Positions 1 to 17,305 are shown, counted from the stretch's first letter. The stretch is DNA of 23,852 bases from Endozoicomonas acroporae (GCF_002864045.1 NZ_PJPV01000073.1:1-23852); one strand, 5' to 3'. Made by a program: numbers and translations. Notes: generated by a model from the sequence alone, not told the origin.

Positions 1-2214
1 ACCCACGGTTTCGACCGTGCTGTCCACCGCCATGATGTTGGCAATCATTCCTTTAACCTCACCCCCCCCGATGCCGGCGTATTTTTGTTTACCATTGGTG
101 AGAATATGAATATTTTCCGCCCGGATATTACTGACTGTGCCAGTATCATCAACAACACAGGCTGCTAACCCGGTCGGCTTCGCGGAATTTGTTATATTGG
201 CACGAGTAAACTGAAGGTCACTGATGCTGCCTTCCAGAGTGTCAACAAAACAGTCAGACAGGCCGCTGATGGTACGGCACTGCCCATAGAACTCCCCGGT
301 GAATGGATGGGTATGATTGCCAATGGATTGAAAGTCTTTAGTGACAACAATATCCGCTGTCTGTTGATAGGTACCGTTTAGTGGATAGTCGGGATGTCGG
401 CCAATCTTGCCCAGGGTTTCTGCATCATTAATCTTTATGGGTGTTGATGCTGTAGTGGGTGTTGACTCTTTAGCGGCTGTTGATTCTGTAGCGTCTGTTG
501 ACACTGTAGCGGCATTTACCGGACAAACCGATAAATCCAACGCATCCCGAAATTCAGTTCTCGAAGAGCAATTGGCTGTTAACACACGTGGGTCTGCATT
601 TTGGCAAAGAAGCTGATCATTGGGGATAGATCCAAAATCCTTTTTATGGCCATTGACAAAGCTGTTCACCGCCGTGGTTTTGTCAACCGTTCCTAAATTG
701 TACCCACCCCCGATGCCGGCGTATGCATGTTCACCCTCGGTTGTGAGATGGCTGTTCACCGCCGTGGTGTTGGCAACCGTTCCTAAATTGTACCCACCCC
801 CGATGCCGGCGTATGCATGTTCACCCTCGGTTGTGAGATGGCTGTTCACCGCCGTGGTGTTGGCAACCGTTCCTATAACCCCCCCCCCACCGATGCCGGC
901 GAATGAAGCATAACCCGAAGTTGTGACATGGCTGTTCACCGCCTCGGTGTTGGCAACCGTTCCGTCAACCCGCCCCCCGCCGATGCCGCCTTCTGCACGC
1001 CAACCCACCGTTTCGACCGTGCTGTTCACCGCTGTGGTGTTATCAACCTTTCCTCCAGTTTTAACCCCCCCCACCCCGATGCCGGCGTATGCACGGTCAC
1101 CCTCGGTTGTGACATGGCTGTTCACCGCCGTGGTGTTGCCAACCTTTCCTCCGGCTTTAACCTGCCCCCCCCCGATGCCGGCGTGTGCAAAATCACCCTT
1201 GGTTTCGACCGTGCTGTTCACCGACATTATGTTGCCAACCGTTCCTTTAACCTCACCCCCCCCGATGCCGGCGTCTGCAAGCCGACCCTCGGTTTTGACA
1301 TTGCTGTTCACCGCCATGGTGTTGGCAACCGTTCCTCCACCGTCAACCACGCCCGCGCCAATGCCGGCGTGTGCATCGTCACCCGAGGTGGAAATATGAA
1401 CATTTTCGGCCCGGATATCACTGACTGTGCCATCGGCAGTACAGGCTACCAACCCGGTCGTCTTCGTTGAATTTATATGGGTATCAGTAAAGCCAAGGTG
1501 AGTGATGTTGCCTTGTTTCAGAGTATCAACTAAACAGTCAGGCAGGCCGCTGATGGTACGGCACTGCCCATCGTAATCACCGGTGAATGGGTGGGTATCA
1601 TTGCCAATGGATTGATAGTCTTTAGTGACAACAATATCCGCTGTCTGTCGATATTTGCCGTTCAGTGGATAGGCGGGATCTCGACCAATCTTATCCAGGG
1701 CTTCTGCATCATCAATGGCAATGGATTGCGAATTCGCATACTGAAAAGAGCTGGCCAGCGTGCCAAGGGCAAGCAGTCCTTTGGCTCCCTGACTCCCTTG
1801 ATCGCGGGCCGTGGATGGCTGTTGAAGGGGTACGGTTTTCGAGCCGGATTCTTTTTCCTGAGCCTCTTCCCGGGTTTCTTTTGATGTCTGTGGTAATTCC
1901 GGTTTTGCATCCGCCCCGGACAAACCGCTCCCGGACCAGGCATTGGCCATATCTTTCGCCATGAAAAGGATGGAACTCGACGGCAGGATAGTTGTTGTGG
2001 CCAGTCGCAAAAGATCTTTCACTGCTTTGCGGGAATTGAAACTGAGGCAAGGGTCTTCCATTGGAATCAATGATTTCACAAATGCTTTAGAAACAGCAAC
2101 GCCATGGCCGAGCCAGGAATATTCGGCACCATTCCCTGAACATTGGGAAGCGCTGTCGCAAATTGGTTGCTGAATTGATTGCTGAATGGGTTGCTGATTG
2201 GATTGCTGAATCAT
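1..2214 (-). CDS. Large repetitive surface/secreted protein, N-terminal 738 codons only (3' end lies beyond the window). It has two modules, each a conserved cap followed by 30-32 aa Gly-rich GLUG-like repeats.
   Basis: Hand translation of the minus strand from ATG 2214..2212 (SD aggag 8 nt upstream) is stop-free for 738 codons down to position 1. It is absent from the ORF track because it has no in-window stop. The repeat consensus is GTVANTTAVNSHVTTEG..AYAGIGGG. The cap motif D.E.L.KIGR.P.YPLNG.Y.QTADIVVTKD.QSIGN.THPFTG...GQCRTISGL occurs twice (encoded at about 1500-1725 and 200-445). All track ORFs between 407 and 2173 lie inside it in other frames. Confidence 0.8.
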   Translation of the reverse strand, partial: MIQQSNQQPIQQSIQQPICDSASQCSGNGAEYSWLGHGVAVSKAFVKSLIPMEDPCLSFNSRKAVKDLLRLATTTILPSSSILFMAKDMANAWSGSGLSGADAKPELPQTSKETREEAQEKESGSKTVPLQQPSTARDQGSQGAKGLLALGTLASSFQYANSQSIAIDDAEALDKIGRDPAYPLNGKYRQTADIVVTKDYQSIGNDTHPFTGDYDGQCRTISGLPDCLVDTLKQGNITHLGFTDTHINSTKTTGLVACTADGTVSDIRAENVHISTSGDDAHAGIGAGVVDGGGTVANTMAVNSNVKTEGRLADAGIGGGEVKGTVGNIMSVNSTVETKGDFAHAGIGGGQVKAGGKVGNTTAVNSHVTTEGDRAYAGIGVGGVKTGGKVDNTTAVNSTVETVGWRAEGGIGGGRVDGTVANTEAVNSHVTTSGYASFAGIGGGGVIGTVANTTAVNSHLTTEGEHAYAGIGGGYNLGTVANTTAVNSHLTTEGEHAYAGIGGGYNLGTVDKTTAVNSFVNGHKKDFGSIPNDQLLCQNADPRVLTANCSSRTEFRDALDLSVCPVNAATVSTDATESTAAKESTPTTASTPIKINDAETLGKIGRHPDYPLNGTYQQTADIVVTKDFQSIGNHTHPFTGEFYGQCRTISGLSDCFVDTLEGSISDLQFTRANITNSAKPTGLAACVVDDTGTVSNIRAENIHILTNGKQKYAGIGGGEVKGMIANIMAVDSTVETVG
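661..1392 (-). repeat. About eight tandem 90-96 bp (30-32 codon) repeats inside the repeat-protein gene
   Basis: Units start with gctgttcacc at 661, 751, 841, 931, 1021, 1117, 1213 and 1303. Units 661-750 and 751-840 differ at only 2 positions. Confidence 0.9.
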
Positions 2215-2237
2215 AAACAGGACTCCTGCTGTTGTAG

Positions 2238-3011: not shown

Positions 3012-3421
3012 GGAATTGTCCCGAAATAATTTCCACATTTTGGACTCGATCTCCGTTCATCCTGAGTGCTGAGCTTGTCGAAGCATCGAAGGGTGATTGG
3101 CACAATACATGAGGCCGGAGTTCACGCCCTTCGACAGGCTCAGGACGAACGTAGTACATGGTTTCAATGAGTTTGACGTGTACGATCTCCGTTCACCCTG
3201 AGCGTCCTTCGGCTCCGCTCAGGATGCACGGACGAAGGGTGCTTGGCACGATCTATCAGAGTCCGGAGTTTCCGCCTTTAGGCCCTATGGGTCCTTCGAT
3301 GCTTCGACAAGCTCAGCACTCAGGACGAACGGAGTGCGGAGGCACGACAACCCGTCAAACTCATTGAAACCATGTAGTAGTTTTGAAACTCAGAAATATG
3401 GAAATTATTTCAGGACAGCTC
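3012..3421. mobile_element. MITE family 2 copy (termini ggaattgtcccgaaataatttcc / ggaaattatttcaggacagctc) carrying a nested family 1 MITE
   Basis: The terminal inverted repeats are visible. The right half is co-linear with the truncated copy at 9372-9482, which lacks the nested insert. Confidence 0.7.
3155..3376. mobile_element. MITE family 1 copy, best preserved (perfect 24-bp terminal inverted repeats), nested in family 2 with a GTAG duplication
   Basis: The left end tacatggtttcaatgagtttgacg equals the reverse complement of the right end. GTAG occurs at 3151-3154 and 3377-3380. The empty site gaacGTAGttttgaaact is present at 9433-9450. Confidence 0.9.
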
Positions 3422-3437: not shown

Positions 3438-4442
3438 TCAGCGCTCTGGTGCAGTGGTCAGGCCAAAATGCTGCTGTGAAAAAGCAACCCGTTCTTCAAT
3501 AGGCAGGTCATGCTTGCGCAGGGATTCAATCATTTTCAGCCTGGGCTCGATCCCCTGGCCATTGGCAATCTGAATCGCCAGCCCCGGTCGGGCGTTGAGC
3601 TCCAGAATCAGAGGGCCAAGATGTTTGTCCAGCACCAGATCGACACCCAGGTAGCCCAGGTTGGTCATCTCATAGCAGGTAGCCGACAGGCATAATATCT
3701 TATGCCAGTGGGGCACATTGAGGGTTGAGAAATTGTGGCCCGTATCCGGATGAAGGCTGACCGGCAAATCATGCTGCACACTTCTCAGGCTGTTGCCGGT
3801 TGCCATGTCCAGGCCGACGCCGACTGCCCCCTGGTGCAGGTTGGCCTTGCCATCGGATTTCCGGGTGGCCAGACGCATCATTGCCATAACGGGAAAGCCC
3901 CGGAACACAATGACGCGGATATCCGGTACACCTTCAAAGCTGTAGTCATTAAAAATGGGGTCAGCGACGATCAGGCTTTCGATAACGGCGACGTCTGATT
4001 TGCCGCCCAGACTGTAGAGACCGCCGAGAATATTGGACACATCACGGCTAATGGCGTCAAAGGATAAGCTGTCGCCGCTGGCCTTGACGTATCGATCACC
4101 ATCACGGCCGGTAATCACCAGAATGCCTTTGCCGCCACTGCCCTTGGCCGGTTTGATAACAAACTTCTCCAGTGGTTCCAGAATGCCTTTTAACTTGCGG
4201 ATATCGGACTGGTATTCAATCACGCCAATCAGTTTTGGTACATCAACACCGGCTTTCTCGGCCATGCGTTTGGTGGTCAGTTTGTCGTCCACCAGGGGCA
4301 TGAGGCGTCTGGGGTTATATCGGGAGATATAATTCAGGTTGCGGTTGTTCATGCTGAGTATCCCGGACTCTCTGAGCCGGGAGGGTGTGGTAATTGAGTT
4401 TTTTGTCAGCGTGTTGTGCACCAGGCTTGTTAACCATCCCAT
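3438..4442 (-). CDS. RimK-related ATP-grasp ligase (alpha-L-glutamate ligase-like protein)
   Basis: This is a 334-aa ORF with the Gly-rich ATP-grasp loop FVIKPAKGSGGKGILV and the C-terminal GVDLVLD...GPLILELNARPG (E-x-N metal site). SD gaggt lies 8 nt before the ATG, which is 12 nt after the upstream stop. Confidence 0.8.
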   Translation of the reverse strand: MGWLTSLVHNTLTKNSITTPSRLRESGILSMNNRNLNYISRYNPRRLMPLVDDKLTTKRMAEKAGVDVPKLIGVIEYQSDIRKLKGILEPLEKFVIKPAKGSGGKGILVITGRDGDRYVKASGDSLSFDAISRDVSNILGGLYSLGGKSDVAVIESLIVADPIFNDYSFEGVPDIRVIVFRGFPVMAMMRLATRKSDGKANLHQGAVGVGLDMATGNSLRSVQHDLPVSLHPDTGHNFSTLNVPHWHKILCLSATCYEMTNLGYLGVDLVLDKHLGPLILELNARPGLAIQIANGQGIEPRLKMIESLRKHDLPIEERVAFSQQHFGLTTAPER

Positions 4443-4454
4443 GGAAACCGACCT

Positions 4455-5987
4455 CTACTTATCCGAATGAACCAGTGGATAGAACCGCTTGAGTTCAAGC
4501 AGTCGATAGCCAGTGTACTGACCAAGCAGCAGAACAATGCCCAACAAGGTGAGCATCAGTTCAGGGAAGTTGAAGGTGAGCTGTTCGACAATGGGGTTGG
4601 ACATCAACAGGTAACTCAGGGTGGCTACCAGAAGACTGCCGCCGCCTTCTTTCACGACATCGCCGGGGCCTTCTTCTTCCCAGAGGATGGACATCCGCTC
4701 AATGGTCCATGCCAGAATGATCATCGGGAAGAAAGTGACCGTCAGTGCCTGGGTAATGCCCAGTTTCCAGCTGAAGATGCTCATGGCGGCCATGATCAGA
4801 ATGACAACAATGATGACAGCCCCCAGCCGCGCCACTAGCAGCATGTTTTGCTGACTAAGGAAAGATCGTATCCATAAACCAATGGATACCAGGGAGGTGA
4901 AAATCACCAGCCCGGGTATTAATTGAGTTTGCAGGAAAGCCATGGCAATCAGCACCGGCATAAAGGTGCCGGAGGTGCGCAGACCAACGATGATGCGCAT
5001 AAATAGCACAACCAATACCCCGATCGGTATCAATAGAATGATCTTAAAGGCGTTCTGGACTTCCAATGGCAGGGAGTAGATGGAAAAGTCTATTAAGGCA
5101 GCACCATCCTGGTTTGCCTGGGTGAGTGCCAGCTCCCGGGTCGGGGCATTCTGGGAAATGATAGAGAACCGGACGTCAGAGTTAACCCCGCCCATCACAT
5201 CCAGCAGTGATTTGGCCCCGCGCTGCCAGAGAAAGAAGGCGTCCGGATTGCCTGCTTTACCGGTTTTGGGATCAAAGAGCTGCCATTCGGTGCCATCATA
5301 CACCTCTATCATGTCGATAATGGGTTGTCTGCGTCGGCCATCTTCCAGGTGCAGGCCCCGGACAATGCGAGCGGGGATATTACCCATATGGAGTAGATTG
5401 ACCAGCAAGTCCGGAAGCTTAACCCCTTCTTCCACCATGCCGAGCAGCATATTGGTGTTCTGGCCGGGTTCTTTGGCATTAAACTGGCTGATCATGGTGT
5501 CGGCAAAACTGACCGTGTCTGCTGAGTGTTCAGTCACCTGTTTTAACAGGCTTTTGGCGGCGGTTTGATAGGGTTCGGGCAGCACGGGCGCAATGAACGG
5601 TTCGGGCTGGTCATGCACGTTGGGGTTGATGCCGGGCTCCAGACGGATCTTAACCTTATAAAACAGATCCTGGCGACCATCCGCTTTGCGGATACTCCAG
5701 ACCGCACGGCGCTGACCGCCATCGTTGGTCTGGTTAATGCCATAGCCGGGTGAGGCAAAGGATTCATCGAGAATTCTTACATCGGACTGCTGATCCGGAA
5801 GGGTCAGGCTTGCCTGGGCAGCCTGTCCCCGGGCTTTGAAGCTCACCCAGGCTTCAATACTCCAGACAGTAGAGACATCCTTGCCCAATAGCGGAAAACC
5901 CAGTGCAAAGTGTTTGTACAGGGTTAATCCAAGGCCGGCGACAATCAGTCCGGCAATCATAAGGCCAAGCTGAAAACGACCTTTCAT
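4455..5987 (-). CDS. Membrane protein with an N-terminal helix, a large external domain containing an inactive transglutaminase-like core, and about 7 C-terminal TM helices
   Basis: This is a 510-aa ORF with SD gaggaa before the ATG. The segment NIPARIVRGL...IEVYDGTEWQLFDP resembles a transglutaminase core, but I see no Cys or His at the expected nucleophile positions. Residues about 315-500 are hydrophobic helices. Confidence 0.75.
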   Translation of the reverse strand: MKGRFQLGLMIAGLIVAGLGLTLYKHFALGFPLLGKDVSTVWSIEAWVSFKARGQAAQASLTLPDQQSDVRILDESFASPGYGINQTNDGGQRRAVWSIRKADGRQDLFYKVKIRLEPGINPNVHDQPEPFIAPVLPEPYQTAAKSLLKQVTEHSADTVSFADTMISQFNAKEPGQNTNMLLGMVEEGVKLPDLLVNLLHMGNIPARIVRGLHLEDGRRRQPIIDMIEVYDGTEWQLFDPKTGKAGNPDAFFLWQRGAKSLLDVMGGVNSDVRFSIISQNAPTRELALTQANQDGAALIDFSIYSLPLEVQNAFKIILLIPIGVLVVLFMRIIVGLRTSGTFMPVLIAMAFLQTQLIPGLVIFTSLVSIGLWIRSFLSQQNMLLVARLGAVIIVVILIMAAMSIFSWKLGITQALTVTFFPMIILAWTIERMSILWEEEGPGDVVKEGGGSLLVATLSYLLMSNPIVEQLTFNFPELMLTLLGIVLLLGQYTGYRLLELKRFYPLVHSDK

Positions 5988-6062
5988 TCTTTTCCTCGCT
6001 TTTAACTGTCTATCTTGGGTTCAGTTGATATAAGGGAGCCTGGCTAAACTGTGCCCGGCTAG

Positions 6063-6240
6063 TACATGGTTTCAATGTACAGGATGGGTTCCCTCTATCA
6101 ATGACGCTCAAACTCCATTCGTCCTGAGCGGAGTCGAAGGGCGTAAACTCCGTGCCCTGAATAAAGACTGTGCCAATCACCCTTCGACTCCGCTCAGGGT
6201 GAACGGAGATGGTACACACCAAACTCATTGAAATGGTGTG
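6063..6240. mobile_element. MITE family 1 copy with a CTAG duplication, inserted in the intergenic spacer of the three-gene module
   Basis: CTAG occurs at 6059-6062 and 6241-6244. The termini are degenerate but recognisable (tacatggtttcaatg / cattgaaatggtgtg). Confidence 0.8.
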
Positions 6241-6256
6241 CTAGGCTGTATGCCGC

Positions 6257-7420
6257 TCAGGGCTGTTTGGTATCCGCTGTGTATTCTCTGGATACATCCA
6301 CAAGCGCTCGTTTCTCAAGGAAACGGGCACCGATCAATGCCGGGAATTCATAGTTTTCCCGGCTGCGCAAAGTGAATTGTGTCGGTACAAGGATGTCACC
6401 AATGCTGGCATTCAACGTGATCACCGGGCGTCGTTCAGGCTCTTCTCCATGACGTTTGATCCGAACAAACCGGGTGACCGGCTCCTGCATGGAGATAAGA
6501 TCACCAGTGGAGTTTGCCAATCGGAAGCGAACCCAGTCTTGGCCATCTTTTTCGAAAAACTCAATCTCCCGTGCATCAATGGATGAGGTCAGGGCACCGG
6601 TATCAATTCGGGCTTTGAGGACCGTATCGGCATCAGGCAGCGTCATATGTTCAACAGCGCCCACGGTGACCAGACCTTTAATGCTGACCGGTTTGATGAT
6701 CGCCCTGGTGTAGGATTTCTGGGTAACGGGAACCAGGGCTTTACGGTTATTGGAGCTGATCACCGTTTTAGTGGCAATATGCTTCTGATTGACGTCGATA
6801 ACGGCCAGATCCTGCATAAAGCTGCGCCCGATCAGCAGCGGTGACTCATAGTTGCTGCGATCAGTCAGTGAAACAGGCACTGACTGGGTAATGTCACCGA
6901 TGGTTATGGTCATCATGACAATCGGGCGCTCCACCGATGGGAGCCCCGGACGTTTGATCCGGGTGACACTTTTCAGCGGTAACTCCATCAGCTCAGTCCC
7001 TTTGGACGTACGATGGAGCTCAAACCTGACCCACTTTTTGCTATCACGCTCAAAAAACTGGATCTCTCTGGCATCCACGGAACTGTTTTCCGCGCCAGTA
7101 TCCAGCTTTGCCTCCATTTTGAGGTTCAGGTTTGGCAGGGTAGCGGTTTCGTTGATGCCAAGAACGAGCAGGCCATCCTGGTGAGCCGGTGTCTGGATGG
7201 TCTGCTCACGAATGGTAATCGTATGGGTGTCGGCAGGAGGCTTTGTTTGTGCCTCGGGCTTTGCTGGCACCATGGGGTGTTCCGACGTCTCCGGAACCGG
7301 AACGGGTTGGGTAGTACGAGAATCGTCCCTGGCGGGACGCTCTTTATAAAAAGCTGTCTGGCATCCGGTTAAAATCATGGTTAAAACAAATAAAGCAGGC
7401 AGAGCCAAGTTGCGGAACAT
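6257..7420 (-). CDS. Lipoprotein with two tandem DUF785 / 'ATP-dependent zinc protease'-type retropepsin-like domains
   Basis: I moved the start to ATG 7420 (MFRNLALPALFVLTMILTGC, lipobox LTG|C). The 111 extra codons of track ORF 6257..7753 read through the 137-bp repeat. There are two D-T-G-A motifs in parallel contexts: KLDTGAENSSVDAREIQFFERDSKKWVRF and RIDTGALTSSIDAREIEFFEKDGQDWVRF. Confidence 0.75.
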   Translation of the reverse strand: MFRNLALPALFVLTMILTGCQTAFYKERPARDDSRTTQPVPVPETSEHPMVPAKPEAQTKPPADTHTITIREQTIQTPAHQDGLLVLGINETATLPNLNLKMEAKLDTGAENSSVDAREIQFFERDSKKWVRFELHRTSKGTELMELPLKSVTRIKRPGLPSVERPIVMMTITIGDITQSVPVSLTDRSNYESPLLIGRSFMQDLAVIDVNQKHIATKTVISSNNRKALVPVTQKSYTRAIIKPVSIKGLVTVGAVEHMTLPDADTVLKARIDTGALTSSIDAREIEFFEKDGQDWVRFRLANSTGDLISMQEPVTRFVRIKRHGEEPERRPVITLNASIGDILVPTQFTLRSRENYEFPALIGARFLEKRALVDVSREYTADTKQP

Positions 7421-7639
7421 GTGACAAGCACTACGTTTTTTGGGGACTATTGAAGGCGCACACATTTTATGCGTGCAGCCATGGCGGTTGCCTGTCATCA
7501 ACAAAACCGTAGTGCCTGAAGGAGTCCGGTGATAGTGGCTGAAGTATTGGCAACTAAAAGCGAGGAAGCTTACTTGATCTGCCTTCGCTTGCCAATTGTT
7601 AATCTTGACTAAATTCTGAGATGTGACGGGAGCCGAATG

Positions 7640-7776
7640 TTTGCCGTGAAAGAAAATTGCCACGGAGGCAAAGAGACACGGAGAACAGAAAAACGCTTTT
7701 CCTCTGTGTCTCCGTGACTCTGTGGCTAAAGCTTTCATGACAGAGGGTAACAAACCATCGTCATGAACATTTGTGT
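7640..7776 (+). repeat. 137-bp hairpin-containing repeat (family 6), copy 1
   Basis: It differs at 2 positions from 22282-22418. The core inverted repeat is gagacacggag...ctccgtgactctgtgg. Confidence 0.9.
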
Positions 7777-7860
7777 CCTAACGGGTTCAAAGTAAGAAAA
7801 AGGGATGTGTTGAAAATAACTCTTTTTTTAAAGAACCACTTACATTTGAGACTGGTAGCC

Positions 7861-7898
7861 GCTAAATAAGCTCGCCCGGATAGCCAGACTATCCGGGC
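7861..7898 (-). terminator. Probable rho-independent terminator of brnQ
   Basis: There is a perfect 10-bp stem gcccggatag / ctatccgggc with a 5-nt loop, 22 nt after the brnQ stop. On the minus strand it is followed by gagcttattt, which is only a modest T tract. Confidence 0.5.
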
Positions 7899-7919
7899 AC
7901 AATGGTTGTAACTGTTTTA

Positions 7920-9371: not shown

Positions 9372-9482
9372 CACCCCGTTCATCCTGAGCTTGTCGAAGG
9401 ATGGTGCCACCGTACTTCGACAAGCTCAGTACGAACGTAGTTTTGAAACTCAGAAATGTGGAAATTATTTCAGGACAGTTCC
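9372..9482. mobile_element. Truncated MITE family 2 copy (right half only)
   Basis: ccgttcatcctgagcttgtcgaagg...cttcgacaagctcagtacgaacgtagttttgaaactcagaaatgtggaaattatttcaggacagttcc is co-linear with 3047-3151 plus 3377-3421. Confidence 0.7.
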
Positions 9483-10068: not shown

Positions 10069-10140
10069 CCCAGTAAATTTTGGCTTGAGGTGAAAGGAGT
10101 ATAGCCGCTGATGGTTGTATTTCAGTGGCTATCGGTATTA

Positions 10141-10348
10141 AGTAGTTGGCCAAATGGAATCGTATATTTCTGGCTAAGTGGGCAGTTGCTATGCAAGGCG
10201 CAACGTAGGGAGCATAGCCGTAGCTATGTGACCGGAGTTGCAACGCCGCACGACTGCATGGATGCAGGAGATAGAGCAACGCAGGAGCAGTTGCCGGGAG
10301 TGACTGACAACTTAGTCAGAAATATATGATTTCATTTGGTTAACTACT
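10141..10348 (+). mobile_element. MITE family 3 copy A (termini agtagttggcc / ggttaactact, TA duplication), with a 47-bp internal extra segment
   Basis: TA occurs at 10139-10140 and 10349-10350. It is co-linear with copy B (11526-11686) and inverted copy C (23553-23713). Confidence 0.85.
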
Positions 10349-11301
10349 TACAACCAGCCTTTACGTTTAAAAAACAGAAAGGTGGCTAACGCGCTCAACA
10401 ACATCAGTCCGAGTGCAATTGGATAGCCGAACTCTATCGAGAGCTCTGGCATGATTTTGAAATTCATCCCGTAAATACTGGCAATCAGTGTCGGCGGAAG
10501 GAACATAACGGCGGCCACTGAGAAAATCTTGATTATGTTGTTCTGCTCAAGATTGATGTAGCCCATGGTGGACTCCATCAGAAAGTTGATTTTCTCGAAC
10601 AGGAAGCCGGTGTGTGGTGTCAGGGATTCAATATCCCGAAGCATATCCCTGATATTGTCTTTCTGTTGATCATTGAGCATGTGGCTGCATGCACGCATCA
10701 GGTAACGAAGTGAGCGCTGGGTATCCAGCAGGTTCAACCTGACTTTGCCATTCAGGTCCTCCTGAAGTGTGATGGTGCGCAGCTGCTCATCAACATCTTT
10801 ATACTGCTCTGACAGCGCATTCTGGCTGACTTCTTCCAGGTCTTCGTAAACTTCTTCCAGAGTATCAGCAAGGTATTCAACCTTGGCATCAAACAGCGCA
10901 ATGATCACCTCCAGAGGCGTTGTTGCCTTGATATGCTGGGTTTTAAGGTGTTTGCGCATCAGCCTGAATAAACCGGTGGGCTCATCCTGAAGGGTGATCA
11001 GTTTATCGGGTCTGAGATTGAATGCGACGTTAATATTTCTCAGCTCGTGGCCGGACCTGTGGGGAAACAGGGAGCGAATATGAATACCGCTTTCGGTTTC
11101 AAAGTAGCGGGAGGAAATTTCAATCTCTCCCAGATCTTCTTCTTCGGGCAGGCAGCCCGGGAAATGGGTTGTTAACCATTGGTGCTCAGCACTGTCCGGC
11201 TCTGTTGCTTCCAGCCATATAGTGCCCTTGGCCGACGGGAAATCTGGCGTCACCCGGTCAATGGAAAACTGGTCATCCTGAGCACTATAGGCAAAGATCA
11301 T
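10348..11301 (-). CDS. corA: CorA-family Mg2+/Co2+ transporter
   Basis: It has the YGMNF signature (IASIYGMNFKIMPEL) followed by two C-terminal TM helices. Starting at ATG 11301 gives 317 aa, the usual CorA size. The track start at 11364 is a TTG extension. Confidence 0.8.
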   Translation of the reverse strand: MIFAYSAQDDQFSIDRVTPDFPSAKGTIWLEATEPDSAEHQWLTTHFPGCLPEEEDLGEIEISSRYFETESGIHIRSLFPHRSGHELRNINVAFNLRPDKLITLQDEPTGLFRLMRKHLKTQHIKATTPLEVIIALFDAKVEYLADTLEEVYEDLEEVSQNALSEQYKDVDEQLRTITLQEDLNGKVRLNLLDTQRSLRYLMRACSHMLNDQQKDNIRDMLRDIESLTPHTGFLFEKINFLMESTMGYINLEQNNIIKIFSVAAVMFLPPTLIASIYGMNFKIMPELSIEFGYPIALGLMLLSALATFLFFKRKGWL

Positions 11302-11525
11302 AGTTACTGCCTTATTGATAACGAAATAGATTGGCCGACTCGAAGTTATAGTGCCAGCCACCAAATTATCTATCTGAACGACCAGACCCTGAATATTTTA
11401 AAAAACAACGGAGGATATTGTCATTTCAGATTTCAGAGGGTTGCACCGTTTGGTAACAAAAAAGGGGAGGGATTGTACGATAATTGACTTCTATTAGGAT
11501 AGTGGGAATGTGCCAGGTGCTAATA

Positions 11526-11686
11526 AGTAGTTGGCCAAATGGAATCGTATATTTCTGGCTAAGTGGGCAGTTACTATGCAAGGCGCAACGTAGGGAGCAT
11601 AGCCGTAGCTATGTGACCGGAGTTGCAACGCCGCAGAGTGACTGACAACTTAGTCAGAAATATATGATTTCATTTGGTTAACTACT
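11526..11686 (+). mobile_element. MITE family 3 copy B (161 bp, TA duplication)
   Basis: TA occurs at 11524-11525 and 11687-11688. It has the same orientation as copy A. Confidence 0.85.
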
Positions 11687-11729
11687 TAACCTGCCAGGGC
11701 AGTATCAGGAAGGTTACGGGGCTGAACAA

Positions 11730-15578: not shown

Positions 15579-17219
15579 CTAAAGCAGGTAAGATGCCGAT
15601 AAAGCCACAGCCCCTACCGGTACTGCAATTTGGGCATATCTGACCAAGTGCCAGAAAGAAGATAGCCAGGTTCTCTGGTCTACTTTGGGGTTTGACCTGA
15701 ACCTGACGTCAAGGCTTTTCTTGGAAAAATAATTATCTTCATAGCGCTTGGAACTGAAGAGCCCCCACAAGGTATACCACTGGCAATCCCAGGCGTCAGG
15801 ATCGGATTCGCAGGACTGATGGTAGAAAGGCAGGTTTTTCTGATAAACCGTTAACTTCAGTGTGTAAATTGTGTTCGGAGCCAGCTGGTCGTCGTAGCTG
15901 AGGGCCTCGTTGGACAGGAAGATTTTTCCGGGGTAGTAGAACAGTGTGGGCACATAACTCCGGTAAATATTTTTGTCAGGGTTATCACCATTTTTCAGTT
16001 TGAACTCCCAAAGCGTGGACCGTCGAATTTTCTGGTCGCTGGAAATGGCGTTCAATGTTTGCTGAATACCTTTTGCTTCATCTATATAAATAGTGGACTT
16101 CAATCTGTCGCCAAATATGGAGGGTTCGTAGAGCTGGACTCTGACGATGATATTTTTCAGCTTTTCAGTGACATCTTCTGATACCTCGTTGAGTGCTGCG
16201 GCAGAGAAGTCCTGAGCCCTCATGATGAATGGGTAGCCTTTCTCTTGCCTTGAGCCATCCAGACCAGGGGCCGACTGCCATACCAGTGGGTCAATCTGCT
16301 CGTTGTCAAAAGTTTTGGGAAGCGAAAAAGCGTTGGGAGAGTCTGAAGCAATTCTTTTTCGTGTGGTTACGGTAAAGCTGACTTCGTCTTCACCCTTGAA
16401 GCGACAGGAAAGGCTATCCGGTTGCGGGTTGTGGATATGCTCGTTGAAGATGTACTCGTTTTTGGGGTCTTCAATAAACAGGGTTGGCGCTAATCTGGCA
16501 GATTGTGAGGTACGCGCGATGTTTTTCAGATTGCTGACAGTGACCACTTCCTCTTCACCCGGTAGCAGATCATAGCCATTGGCAAGACGGTCAATAAAGC
16601 CGGGGGAATCAGGGCTCCAGCGGGCTTTGTCTTTTTTCAGAAACTCAACGTCAAAGACCATTTTTCCCTCACCATCCTGACAGTAACGGCTTTCGTGCAT
16701 GGTGATATCGGCGTAACAGGTTTTTGCCTTCCAATGGCAATGTTCGACTTGTTTCATGCCACCGTCCGAGGTGGGCAGGTATGTCTTTTCACATACATGG
16801 TAAGAACCACAGTGATGTGCATCGGTGACCAGCTGGCACTCCTGCCAATTCCAGTGAAGGTATGTGCGGTAGTTAATAACACCTTTCCAGGCTGGTGACG
16901 GCTGTTGCCGCAAAATATCTGCCGCATCGTGGCGGCTGATATTTTTCAAGTCCTGCCATGCTTCTTCGTCAAAGGATTCCGGTAAGCGAACATGGGTATA
17001 GTGGTTGGCCGAACATCTTAACTCTTCAGAGTGGAGGTTGCGGGTTTGGTCGGCAGGGATAACGTGTCCGGGACATGACTGGCTTGCTGTTATCCTCGGA
17101 GCAGACACTTGCAGGCAATGGTTGTTAATAAGAAAAGGCACGGCATAAGAGGTGTATGGCTTTGAAAATAAAAGTATGAGCAGCAAAGCCACATACACAA
17201 GTTGCTTTTTGATAGCCAT
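15579..17219 (-). CDS. Orphan Cys-rich exported protein with a C-terminal hydrophobic anchor
   Basis: This is a long ORF (the track gives 553 aa from 17240). ATG 17219 gives a clean signal peptide, MAIKKQLVYVALLLILLFSKPYTSYA|VP. There are 12 Cys, 9 of them in the first about 170 mature residues. The last 16 residues, IAVPVGAVALSASYLL, are hydrophobic. I recognise no catalytic motif. Confidence 0.75.
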   Translation of the reverse strand: MAIKKQLVYVALLLILLFSKPYTSYAVPFLINNHCLQVSAPRITASQSCPGHVIPADQTRNLHSEELRCSANHYTHVRLPESFDEEAWQDLKNISRHDAADILRQQPSPAWKGVINYRTYLHWNWQECQLVTDAHHCGSYHVCEKTYLPTSDGGMKQVEHCHWKAKTCYADITMHESRYCQDGEGKMVFDVEFLKKDKARWSPDSPGFIDRLANGYDLLPGEEEVVTVSNLKNIARTSQSARLAPTLFIEDPKNEYIFNEHIHNPQPDSLSCRFKGEDEVSFTVTTRKRIASDSPNAFSLPKTFDNEQIDPLVWQSAPGLDGSRQEKGYPFIMRAQDFSAAALNEVSEDVTEKLKNIIVRVQLYEPSIFGDRLKSTIYIDEAKGIQQTLNAISSDQKIRRSTLWEFKLKNGDNPDKNIYRSYVPTLFYYPGKIFLSNEALSYDDQLAPNTIYTLKLTVYQKNLPFYHQSCESDPDAWDCQWYTLWGLFSSKRYEDNYFSKKSLDVRFRSNPKVDQRTWLSSFWHLVRYAQIAVPVGAVALSASYLL

Positions 17220-17305
17220 CACATCAACCTGCAAAAACATTTAGTGAGTTTATTGTGAAAATGAGTATCCCGTCACAGATACTCATTGCTTTGTATTGAT
17301 GTTTC

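What the first reader, a model, noticed from the sequence alone, without database searches (positions are those of the whole stretch)
3438..7420. RimK-like ATP-grasp / 7TM inactive-transglutaminase / tandem retropepsin lipoprotein triad of unknown function
Seen in sequence:
- There are three co-directional genes. The last two are 12 nt apart.
- The first gap (269 nt) is mostly a later MITE insertion with a CTAG duplication, so the ancestral spacer was under 100 nt.
- Gene 1 is a lipoprotein (LTG|C) with two tandem DUF785-type domains, each carrying D-T-G-A. That makes it a single-chain pseudo-dimer of a fold that normally dimerises to form an aspartic-protease site.
- Gene 2 has one N-terminal helix, a large external domain with a transglutaminase-like core lacking the Cys/His pair, then about 7 helices.
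- Gene 3 is a cytosolic ATP-grasp ligase.

Established: RimK adds C-terminal glutamates to ribosomal protein S6, and DUF785 (RimB) proteins partner with RimK in pseudomonads. This triad is annotated by homology in many marine gammaproteobacteria, but I know of no defined substrate or phenotype.

Inference: this is a trans-envelope peptide ligation and trimming system.
Basis: partly seen in the sequence, partly recalled or inferred. Interest (0 to 1): 0.72.

Follow-up and report, generated by a model that had tools for sequence, protein, structure and literature searches.

The report
rloABC operon with fused retropepsin
The three genes are the rloABC envelope-stress operon already described in Pseudomonas in 2025, here in a coral-associated Endozoicomonas, and the only new feature is that its normally two-chain protease is fused into one chain with two active-site halves.

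Summary
Every sequence observation holds. Three minus-strand genes lie 269 and 12 nt apart, and a MITE sits in the first gap that four close relatives lack.

- Gene 1 is a lipoprotein with two PF05618 domains, each carrying DTGA.
- Gene 2 is a cysteine-free transglutaminase-like domain followed by 7 TM helices.
- Gene 3 is an ATP-grasp protein of family TIGR02291.

The triad is not unknown. It is the rloABC operon of Lormand et al. (mBio 2025). In that work RloA is a secreted homodimeric retropepsin that cleaves poly-Glu. Loss of all RloA paralogues is lethal at low osmolarity, and deleting rloB or rloC rescues it.

In 80 species loci found through RloB:
- RloA lies directly upstream in 80 of 80.
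- RloC lies downstream in 79 of 80.
- The two-domain RloA occurs in only 10, all Endozoicomonas or Spongorhabdus.

Both halves keep invariant catalytic and basic residues across 52 homologues. AlphaFold2 gives a confident two-domain model (pTM 0.74). Neither paper I read mentions a fused form.

Verdict: a known system with a lineage-specific single-chain protease variant. The physiological substrate and the role of RloB remain unknown.

The parts
6257..7420 (-). rloA: a lipoprotein made of two fused retropepsin-like (PF05618) domains, 387 aa
   Evidence: Pfam gives two stretches at 1.9e-67. NCBIfam RloA1/2/3 models score 180-194 bits, below their Pseudomonas-specific cut-offs. PDB sequence search matches 9g58 to domain 1 and 9g59 to domain 2. 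AlphaFold2 gives pLDDT above 90 for most of residues 65-384 (lower at the two flaps) and pTM 0.74. Foldseek matches 2pma, 9g59 and 9g58 with TMt 0.79-0.85.
7361..7420 (-). Lipoprotein signal peptide, MFRNLALPALFVLTMILTG|C
   Evidence: Translation checked. M1 and C20 are invariant, and R3, G19 and Q21 nearly so, in 52 homologues.
7235..7360 (-). Tether of 42 residues rich in Pro, Glu and Thr, predicted disordered
   Evidence: pLDDT is below 50. Mean pairwise identity is 21.8%, while length stays at 34-55 residues (mostly 39-47) in 13 sampled homologues.
6767..7177 (-). Retropepsin-like domain 1, residues 82-218, with DTGA at nt 7091-7102
   Evidence: K105, D107, T108, G109, A110, R165 and R188 are invariant. 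Mean identity within the clade is 62.6%.
6680..6766 (-). Inter-domain linker, residues 219-247, modelled as beta strands
   Evidence: Strands at 219-231 and 237-244 have pLDDT of 90 or more. Mean identity is 33%.
6269..6679 (-). Retropepsin-like domain 2, residues 248-384, with DTGA at nt 6593-6604
   Evidence: R271, D273, G275, A276, R331 and R354 are invariant, and T274 nearly so. Mean identity is 56.3%. Identity to domain 1 is 39-40%.
6059..6244 (.). MITE inserted in the rloA-rloB spacer, CTAG at both ends
   Evidence: Repeat families D10, D11, I6 and I17. Copies aligned. The site lacks the element in four relatives and is filled in ALB091. The 269-nt spacer folds as RNA at -106 kcal/mol, z = -6.9.
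4455..5987 (-). rloB: N-terminal TM helix, periplasmic cysteine-free transglutaminase-like domain (nt 5073-5900), helical membrane module (nt 4521-5066) and conserved cytoplasmic tail
   Evidence: Pfam. NCBIfam RloB scores 368 bits over the full length, below its 900-bit cut-off. No cysteine. AlphaFold2 pLDDT 78. Foldseek matches 3isr at E 2e-9 over 277 columns for the outer domain and finds nothing for the membrane module.
4443..4454 (-). 12-nt rloB-rloC junction; AGAGG overlaps the rloB stop codon
   Evidence: Sequence read.
3438..4442 (-). rloC: cytoplasmic ATP-grasp protein of the alpha-L-glutamate ligase-like family
   Evidence: ATPgrasp_ST 1.3e-96. TIGR02291 454.7 bits against a cut-off of 314.2. 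The sequence is identical to WP_101747030.1 of Endozoicomonas acroporae.
7421..7919 (-). Upstream intergenic region: a terminator-like hairpin after brnQ (7873-7899) and a repeat copy (7640-7776)
   Evidence: Terminator scan. Repeat D6 is 99% identical to 22282-22418. Sequence read.

Best explanation
Identity, shown here. This is the chromosomal rloABC operon of Endozoicomonas acroporae or a near-identical strain.

Variant, partly shown. RloA is a homodimer of single-domain chains in Pseudomonas. Here it is one chain carrying two diverged copies of the domain. Each copy keeps its catalytic Asp-Thr-Gly-Ala motif and the basic residues that line the poly-Glu channel. The most likely arrangement is that the two halves pack against each other to form one active site, as the two lobes of pepsin do. 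A roughly 40-residue flexible tether then holds the enzyme to a membrane through its lipid anchor.

Mechanism, inferred from Pseudomonas genetics and biochemistry.
- Cytoplasmic RloC uses ATP to build an acidic peptide, probably poly-alpha-glutamate.
- RloB is the only membrane component. It has an almost invariant cytoplasmic face and charged residues within the membrane. It passes or presents that product to the periplasm.
- RloA cuts the product down.
- Without RloA the product builds up and damages the envelope. This explains why loss of rloB or rloC rescues RloA-less cells.

The MITE between rloA and rloB is a recent passenger shared with one close strain. It adds a strong RNA hairpin to the transcript.
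For: Identity.
- Family hits; PDB hits to RloA structures.
- RloC is an exact match to an E. acroporae protein.
- The neighbours glnD-corA-ybaK-brnQ-rloABC are in the same order as in E. elysicola.

Functional linkage.
- Among 80 species loci found through RloB, RloA is directly upstream in 80 of 80.
- RloC is downstream in 79 of 80; the exception is a truncated contig.

Two working halves.
- Both DTGA motifs and both Arg pairs are invariant in 52 homologues.
- The domains are far better conserved than the tether and linker: 63% and 56% against 22% and 33%.
- The D1 and D2 clades are each monophyletic across Endozoicomonas and Spongorhabdus.

Intramolecular packing.
- pTM is 0.74 even though about 60 residues are disordered. 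Two freely oriented domains of about 150 residues could not reach that value (my inference from how pTM is defined).
- Other fused forms also carry exactly two DTGA motifs per chain. These are P0275, and the Vibrio four-domain proteins in which only the first and last domains keep the motif.

Mechanism.
- RloA cleaves runs of 8 or more Glu, and deleting rloB or rloC suppresses the triple rloA deletion (PMC12239564).
- RloB carries invariant GLRTSGTFMP, WTIERMS and WEExGP motifs and a conserved C-terminal helix.
Against: - I could not read model coordinates, so the distance between Asp107 and Asp273 is unmeasured.
- Whole-length Foldseek hits to two-lobed pepsins have high probability but TM of only about 0.3 and rmsd of 11-17 A.
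- RloC is only distantly related to RimK. It scores 47 bits against a 143-bit cut-off for TIGR00768, so glutamate as its substrate is an analogy.
- RloB's membrane module resembles no solved transporter.
- Lormand et al. found no physiological substrate.
- A relative (L090) keeps the tandem rloA but has no rloBC. RloA may therefore have other substrates.
Confidence: 0.55

Rival explanations
1. Signalling model. RloB is a sensor rather than a conduit. Its periplasmic pseudo-enzyme domain binds a peptide signal and its conserved cytoplasmic face switches RloC on. RloA destroys the signal or clips RloB. Toxicity without RloA would then come from runaway RloC activity inside the cell.
For: - The same epistasis is predicted: loss of rloB or rloC rescues loss of RloA.
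- RloB's cytoplasmic loops and tail are the most conserved parts of the protein.
- Foldseek finds no transporter-like relative for the membrane module.
- Catalytically dead transglutaminase folds commonly act as binding modules (general knowledge).
Against: - RloA's channel and in-vitro specificity match the product type expected from a RimK-like ligase. That is an odd coincidence if RloA only removes an unrelated signal.
- Invariant charged residues lie inside the membrane helices, E430-R431. This is more typical of a pathway for a charged substrate.
Confidence: 0.22
2. Cell-wall model. RloC and RloB modify a peptidoglycan or lipid-linked envelope precursor with amino acids. RloA trims that modification or regulates wall hydrolases or synthases. 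Poly-Glu cleavage would be only an in-vitro proxy.
For: - The triple rloA mutant has cell-shape defects and beta-lactam hypersensitivity, and the authors themselves speculate along these lines.
- Vibrio cholerae rloABC belongs to the VxrAB cell-wall damage regulon.
- The RloC Pfam family is named 'sugar-transfer associated'.
- A Shewanella rloB-type mutant over-produces membrane vesicles (PMC12096838).
Against: - No such modification is known.
- Mutating the Glu-coordinating arginines of RloA abolishes complementation in vivo.
- No cell-wall gene is conserved next to the operon in the loci I inspected.
Confidence: 0.13
3. The two RloA domains do not pair within one chain. Each pairs with its counterpart in a second chain (D1:D1 and D2:D2, or a swapped D1:D2'). 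The protein would then carry two active sites per dimer, or form chains.
For: - The parental fold is an obligate homodimer.
- I have no coordinates or PAE for the model.
- The 29-residue linker is long enough for either arrangement.
Against: - A pTM of 0.74 implies a confident inter-domain geometry within one chain.
- P0275 has a linker of only 7 residues.
- The Vibrio four-domain proteins keep exactly two DTGA motifs.
- D1 and D2 have diverged to about 40% identity and are conserved as distinct types. That is expected for fixed partners.
Confidence: 0.15

Closest known systems
rloABC operon of Pseudomonas aeruginosa and P. fluorescens (Lormand et al., mBio 2025; PDB 9g58, 9g59)
   Same: - Same three families in the same order on one strand.
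- RloA is secreted, has DTGA followed by Ala, and keeps the basic channel residues.
- RloB is an inactive transglutaminase with 7 TM helices.
- RloC is an ATP-grasp protein of family TIGR02291.
   Different: - RloA here is a two-domain single chain rather than a homodimer.
- It has no disulphide pair; its only Cys is the lipid-anchor Cys.
- Its flaps are about 8-11 residues shorter. Single-domain RloA of Kistimonas, Aeromonas and others share the short flap.
- A MITE lies in the rloA-rloB spacer.
RimABK ribosomal protein S6 polyglutamylation system (RimK ligase, RimB retropepsin-like protease)
   Same: It pairs an ATP-grasp ligase with a PF05618 aspartic protease that cuts poly-alpha-Glu. A domain fusion is also known in that system, the RimB-RimK hybrid (PMC11957791).
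   Different: - RimB and RimK are both cytoplasmic and act on RpsF.
- Here the protease is exported and a membrane protein sits between the two genes.
- RloC fails the RimK models: 47 bits against 143, and 20.7 against 331.
Pepsin family A1, including the bacterial pepsin homologues (Rawlings and Bateman 2009, PMC2761423)
   Same: It is a single chain with two homologous lobes, each giving one catalytic Asp. This is the architecture long proposed to have arisen by duplication and fusion of a retropepsin-like gene.
   Different: - There is no sequence membership; Pfam finds no A1 hit.
- The two lobes here are still about 40% identical, so the fusion is much younger.
- Structural matches are weak, with TM about 0.3.
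Multi-domain PF05618 proteins of Vibrio (about 600-630 aa, e.g. P0066)
   Same: Several copies of the same domain sit in one chain, with exactly two DTGA motifs.
   Different: - They have four domains, and the middle two are degenerate.
- The one Vibrio locus I looked at (L003) is not in an rlo operon; the gene sits next to a Peptidase_M15_4 gene.
- Most show no lipobox.

Membership tests
rloABC operon (Lormand et al. 2025) | Exported PF05618 retropepsin-like peptidase with the D-T-G-A active-site motif | tested here: met
rloABC operon (Lormand et al. 2025) | RloA is a single-domain chain that homodimerises | tested here: not met
   There are two domains in one chain. This is the point of difference.
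rloABC operon (Lormand et al. 2025) | Basic residues that coordinate poly-Glu (K46, R92, R114, R137 of P. aeruginosa RloA) | tested here: met
   The matching K/R-x-D, IKR, RP and (D/S)R positions are present in both halves and are invariant or nearly so. The numbering equivalence is inferred from alignment to 9g58, not taken from the P. aeruginosa sequence itself.
rloABC operon (Lormand et al. 2025) | Disulphide pair said to be conserved in periplasmic orthologues | tested here: not met
   Cys20 is the only cysteine. The in-domain Cys seen in the two Pseudomonas sequences is also absent from the five other single-domain RloA sequences aligned.
rloABC operon (Lormand et al. 2025) | rloB (inactive transglutaminase plus 7 TM helices) immediately downstream of rloA | tested here: met
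   The NCBIfam RloB model aligns over its full length at 368 bits, below its strict 900-bit cut-off.
rloABC operon (Lormand et al. 2025) | rloC ATP-grasp gene immediately downstream of rloB | tested here: met
   TIGR02291 scores 454.7 against a cut-off of 314.2. The gap is 12 nt.
rloABC operon (Lormand et al. 2025) | Co-conservation of the three genes across genomes | tested here: met
   80 of 80 loci have RloA upstream and 79 of 80 have RloC downstream. The loci are the 80 most similar RloB hits, so the sample is biased towards relatives.
rloABC operon (Lormand et al. 2025) | Poly-Glu cleavage, and the hypo-osmotic phenotype suppressed by loss of rloB or rloC | not testable with these tools
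   This needs biochemistry and genetics. It is known only for Pseudomonas.
RimABK system | RimK equivalog ligase and a cytoplasmic RimB without a signal peptide | tested here: not met
   TIGR00768 scores 47.3 against 143.4. PRK10446 scores 20.7 against 331. RimB scores 112 against 200. A signal peptide is present.
Pepsin family A1 | Sequence match to the A1 family | tested here: not met
   Pfam gives no A1 hit.
Pepsin family A1 | Bilobal fold with both Asp residues in one cleft | tested here: inconclusive
   Foldseek aligns 360-390 columns to Sap5, renin and plasmepsin with probability 0.98-1.0, but TM is about 0.3.
Catalytic transglutaminase / papain-like fold | Cys-His-Asp catalytic triad | tested here: not met
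   The protein has no Cys. No Cys or His column is invariant. The fold itself is present, matching 3isr at E 2e-9.
MITE | Short non-coding element with terminal inverted repeats, several copies, and absence from the orthologous site in relatives | tested here: met
   The length of the target-site duplication is not resolved.
Anti-phage defence systems (PADLOC) | Match to any defence protein model | tested here: not met
   None of the three proteins has a hit.

The most novel reading that the evidence does not exclude
Two readings remain open, one evolutionary and one mechanistic.

Evolutionary. The Endozoicomonas RloA may be a young, natural replay of the duplication-and-fusion route proposed for the origin of pepsins. 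A homodimeric retropepsin would have become an obligate single-chain enzyme whose halves have specialised. Similar fusions with exactly two DTGA motifs have arisen in other lineages: P0275, and the Vibrio four-domain proteins.

Mechanistic. The enzyme may serve a pathway in which RloB is a new kind of 8-helix exporter, with no solved structural relative. RloB would deliver RloC-made poly-glutamate to the periplasm, where it acts as a tunable polyanion.
Probability: 0.3. Interest if true: 0.6.

Novelty: new variant of a known kind. Interest (0 to 1): 0.33.

Why it matters
The triad itself needs no discovery claim, because it was named and given phenotypes in 2025.

The fused RloA has practical use. 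A single chain lets each catalytic Asp and each half of the substrate channel be mutated separately, which a homodimer does not allow. That would show whether the enzyme reads its substrate asymmetrically, for example at the junction between an anchor and a poly-Glu tail. This bears on the open question of the physiological substrate.

It also gives a dated bacterial example of a retropepsin-to-bilobal transition in which the two halves are still about 40% identical.

Endozoicomonas is a major symbiont of corals and other marine invertebrates, so an envelope-stress operon there may matter for life in the host.

Current RefSeq annotation hides all of this. The gene is named a zinc protease or a RimK/LysX protein, and its called start removes the signal peptide.

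Tried and rejected
- Defence-system reading: PADLOC finds nothing.
- RNA genes or riboswitches in the window: no tRNA and no Rfam match.
- Structural clue to RloB's membrane module: PDB sequence search is empty. Foldseek matches only the outer transglutaminase-like domain. Transport therefore remains an inference.
- Origin of the two halves, either fusion of RloA1-type and RloA3-type paralogues or an in-gene duplication. Per-domain NCBIfam scores lean weakly that way (D1: 97, 92 and 91 bits for A1, A2 and A3; D2: 87.5, 100 and 108). Neighbour-joining trees place the D1 and D2 clades next to each other without resolution. This stays unresolved.
- Promoter inside the MITE: one sigma-70-like site lies at 6101-6074, but such sites are no more frequent than in shuffled sequence.
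- Earlier literature on the Pfam families: Iyer et al. 2009 is not held. Searches for UUP1, 7TM_transglut and TIGR02291 found nothing relevant.
- Whether Endozoicomonas also has single-domain RloA paralogues could not be settled.
- I considered the lack of the disulphide and the short flaps as consequences of the fusion and rejected this. Single-domain RloA of other genera share both features.

Full report
**What is in the sequence**

The region holds three minus-strand genes.
- 6257-7420, 387 aa.
- 4455-5987, 510 aa.
- 3438-4442, 334 aa.
- They are separated by 269 nt and 12 nt.

The longer TTG-started ORF listed for gene 1 (to 7753) runs through an upstream repeat. The ATG at 7420 is the supported start, because M1 is invariant, R3 nearly so, and the lipobox Cys20 invariant in 52 homologues.

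**Family assignments**

Gene 1 has two PF05618 domains (E 1.9e-67).
- DTGA lies at residues 107-110 and 273-276.
- By sequence, domain 1 best matches the crystal structure of P. fluorescens RloA (9g58). Domain 2 best matches P. aeruginosa RloA2 (9g59).

Gene 2 carries Transglut_i_TM and 7TM_transglut.
- It has no cysteine at all.
- It shows no invariant Cys or His in 67 homologues.

Gene 3 is an ATPgrasp_ST protein.
- It passes the curated cut-off of TIGR02291, 'alpha-L-glutamate ligase-like protein' (454.7 against 314.2).
- It fails the RimK models.
- It has no hydrophobic segment.

**It is a known system**

NCBIfam returned models named RloA1-3 and RloB. These led to Lormand et al., mBio 2025 (PMC12239564). 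That paper reports the following.
- It names the operon rloABC.
- It solves RloA structures as C2 homodimers with DTG at the interface.
- It shows cleavage of runs of 8 or more glutamates.
- It shows that the R114A and R137A channel mutants fail in vivo.
- P. aeruginosa lacking all three RloA paralogues dies in low-salt medium. It also has defects in biofilm formation, beta-lactam resistance and cell shape.
- Deleting rloB or rloC rescues these defects.
- The physiological substrate was not found.

The proposed trans-envelope ligation-and-trimming logic is essentially the working model that those genetics suggest, and it remains unproven.

**Source and context**

- RloC is identical to WP_101747030.1 of Endozoicomonas acroporae.
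- RloA is 80% identical to that of E. elysicola.
- RloB is 95% identical to that of Endozoicomonas sp. YOMI1.
- The neighbours (glnD, corA, a ybaK-type editing protein, brnQ) are housekeeping genes in the same order as in E. elysicola.
- A terminator-like hairpin follows brnQ, so rloA probably has its own promoter.

**Co-conservation**

I scanned one genome per GTDB species with an RloB profile and kept the 80 best loci. I then searched their six-frame ORFs with a domain HMM built from the tandem clade and with RloB and RloC.
- An RloA-type gene lies directly upstream on the same strand in 80 of 80.
- RloC lies downstream in 79 of 80; the exception is a 3.6-kb contig that ends there.
- The loci include Nitrosomonas, Aeromonas, Photobacterium, Marinobacter, Methylophaga, Microbulbifer and a Lentisphaeria MAG.
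- The sample is biased towards relatives of the query, but the linkage is clearly not chance.

**What is different here**

In the same census RloA has two domains in only 10 loci. All are Endozoicomonas or strain XeTr1 (Spongorhabdus). It has one domain in the other 70, including Kistimonas and Sansalvadorimonas, which are named as Endozoicomonadaceae in some records.

Across 1.84 billion representative proteins, 3433 match at E of 0.001 or better. Only a handful of 50%-identity clusters align collinearly over the whole tandem protein.

Within the clade:
- Both DTGA motifs are invariant.
- The Lys or Arg two residues before each Asp is invariant.
- The Arg of each 'RP' and each '(D/S)R' motif is invariant.

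These positions correspond, by alignment to 9g58, to the poly-Glu-coordinating residues of the Pseudomonas enzyme.

The domains are well conserved, with mean pairwise identity of 63% and 56%. The tether (22%) and linker (33%) are not.

D1 and D2 form separate monophyletic groups spanning Endozoicomonas and Spongorhabdus. This indicates one old event. They are only 39-40% identical to each other, no closer than either is to Kistimonas RloA. I therefore cannot tell an in-gene duplication followed by rapid divergence from a fusion of two paralogues.

**Structure**

AlphaFold2 with the 52-sequence alignment gives:
- pLDDT above 90 for most of residues 65-384, dipping to 75-83 at the two flaps;
- a disordered signal and tether;
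- pTM of 0.74.

About 60 of the 387 residues are disordered. Two independently oriented 150-residue domains could not reach that pTM, so the model is confident about the inter-domain geometry. This is my inference.

The segment before D1 (65-77) and the linker (219-244) are modelled as strands. That fits a beta-sheet platform.

Foldseek matches each half to 2pma, 9g59 and 9g58 with TMt of about 0.8. It also aligns the whole chain to bilobal pepsins (Sap5, renin, plasmepsin), but with TM of only about 0.3.

I could not obtain coordinates.

**Other fused forms**

- P0275 is a 382-aa lipoprotein with two DTGA domains joined by only 7 residues. Its gene overlaps by 4 nt an rloB that is 43% identical to this one, in a different genomic neighbourhood. 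Its domains do not fall in the Endozoicomonas D1 or D2 clades. It is probably an independent fusion.
- Vibrio proteins of 600-630 aa have four PF05618-like domains. Only the first and last keep DTGA. The one locus examined is outside an rlo operon.
- The recurrence of exactly two DTGA motifs per chain is indirect support for one shared active site per chain.
- Neither the RloA paper nor the RimB paper contains the words 'tandem' or 'lipoprotein', and no gene duplication or RimB-RimB fusion is described. The RimB paper describes a RimB-RimK hybrid.

**Features that are not special**

- A lipobox-like motif occurs in 72 of 80 operon-linked RloA proteins by a simple pattern.
- The short flap occurs in single-domain RloA of other genera as well.
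- The in-domain cysteine of the Pseudomonas disulphide is also absent from the five other single-domain RloA sequences aligned.

**RloB**

The AlphaFold2 model (pLDDT 78) shows:
- an N-terminal helix;
- a beta-sandwich plus transglutaminase-like domain;
- a helical bundle;
- two short C-terminal helices.

Foldseek matches the outer domain to the putative cysteine protease 3isr (E 2e-9). It finds nothing for the membrane module.

With positive residues at the N-terminus, and one plus seven helices, both termini should be cytoplasmic. This is inferred.

The strongest conservation lies on the predicted cytoplasmic face and inside the membrane:
- GLRTSGTFMP;
- WTIERMS, with an intramembrane Glu-Arg pair;
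- W-E-E-x-G-P;
- the tail GQYTGYRLxELxRF.

This fits docking of RloC and passage of a charged substrate, but it also fits a signalling role.

**The MITE**

- The element at 6059-6244 has inverted ends shared with copies at about 2234-2430 and 3151-3380.
- It is missing from the spacer of E. elysicola (53 nt), MAG83fe (about 71 nt), SESOKO1 (110 nt) and YOMI1, whose ~186-nt spacer holds unrelated sequence.
- It is present at the same site in Endozoicomonas sp. ALB091.
- Short-read assemblies carrying this rloA break at the flanking repeats.
- The spacer RNA folds very strongly, at -106 kcal/mol with z = -6.9.
- I cannot say whether this uncouples rloA from rloBC.

**Verdict**

The system is already known. 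The fused, lipid-anchored RloA is a lineage-specific variant worth a short experimental follow-up. The mechanism of the whole system is still inferred.

Noticed in passing
window 7361-7420 (rloA start): RefSeq records for this protein cluster call the gene at 373 aa (e.g. WP_163373339.1). That length fits a start at Met15 (MILTGC), which would remove the n- and h-regions of the signal peptide. The 387-aa start is conserved in 52 homologues. The RefSeq names 'ATP-dependent zinc protease' and 'RimK/LysX family protein' are misnomers for a retropepsin-like aspartic peptidase.
   Followed up: partly
L090:3761-4765: A metagenomic relative keeps the tandem rloA between brnQ and a GGDEF gene, with D1 and D2 in the Endozoicomonas clades, but has no rloB or rloC. 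Its called N-terminus has no recognisable signal peptide, and D1 sits on a long branch. This may be decay after loss of rloBC, or an RloBC-independent role.
   Followed up: partly
L091:5001-7447: A second, probably independent tandem RloA (P0275) has a lipobox and a 7-residue inter-domain linker. Its gene overlaps by 4 nt an rloB that is 43% identical to the window's. PFK and pyruvate kinase genes lie upstream.
   Followed up: partly
L003:6001-7881 and proteins P0061, P0066, P0083, P0097, P0279-P0335: Proteins of about 600-630 aa, those with names from Vibrio, have four PF05618-like domains. Only the first and last keep DTGA. In the one locus examined (L003, V. splendidus) the gene stands alone next to a Peptidase_M15_4 gene, not in an rlo operon.
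   Followed up: partly
window 4455-5066 (rloB membrane module and tail): Several motifs are invariant: GLRTSGTFMP, WTIERMS (an intramembrane Glu-Arg pair), W-E-E-x-G-P on a predicted cytoplasmic turn, and a conserved C-terminal helix. Their function is unknown. The two invariant glutamates next to an ATP-grasp partner are intriguing.
   Followed up: no
window 10139-10350, 11524-11688, 23551-23715; 7640-7776 and 22282-22418; 17306-17473 and 19810-19977; 9377-9437: At least three further families of short repeats or MITE-like elements are scattered through the intergenic regions at 83-100% identity (most copies 95% or more). One copy lies in the rloA upstream region. The genome seems heavily colonised by small repeats.
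   Followed up: no
window 1-2229, minus strand: A large open reading frame runs off the start of the window (more than 743 aa). It contains 30-residue 'AGIGGG..GTVANTTAVNS' repeats encoded by a 90-nt tandem array at 654-1336, and gives a weak Peptidase_M26_N hit. It is probably a surface repeat protein. In E. elysicola a GGDEF gene occupies the position after rloC instead.
   Followed up: partly
window 15579-17240 and 17470-19014, minus strand: Two adjacent ORFs of 553 and 514 aa have no Pfam match.
   Followed up: no
window 20756-21673, minus strand: A 305-aa ORF matches only positions 84-275 of the 446-position alpha-amylase catalytic-domain profile. It is probably a truncated gene.
   Followed up: no
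protein P0153 (Capitella teleta CAPTEDRAFT_216699): An 'annelid' protein on a 1176-nt contig is 95% identical to this RloB. It is almost certainly Endozoicomonas contamination in the worm assembly.
   Followed up: no
L005-L084 (RloA genes upstream of RloB): 72 of 80 operon-linked RloA proteins carry a lipobox-like motif after a hydrophobic N-terminus. RloA may therefore generally be a lipoprotein, although the 2025 paper speaks only of signal peptides. This rests on a simple pattern match, not a trained predictor.
   Followed up: partly
L088:3646-3720: Endozoicomonas sp. ALB091 has four tandem copies of an approximately 16-nt unit (consensus CAGCCCTGAGCGGAAAAA) at the rloA stop codon and just downstream, immediately before its copy of the MITE.
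   Followed up: no
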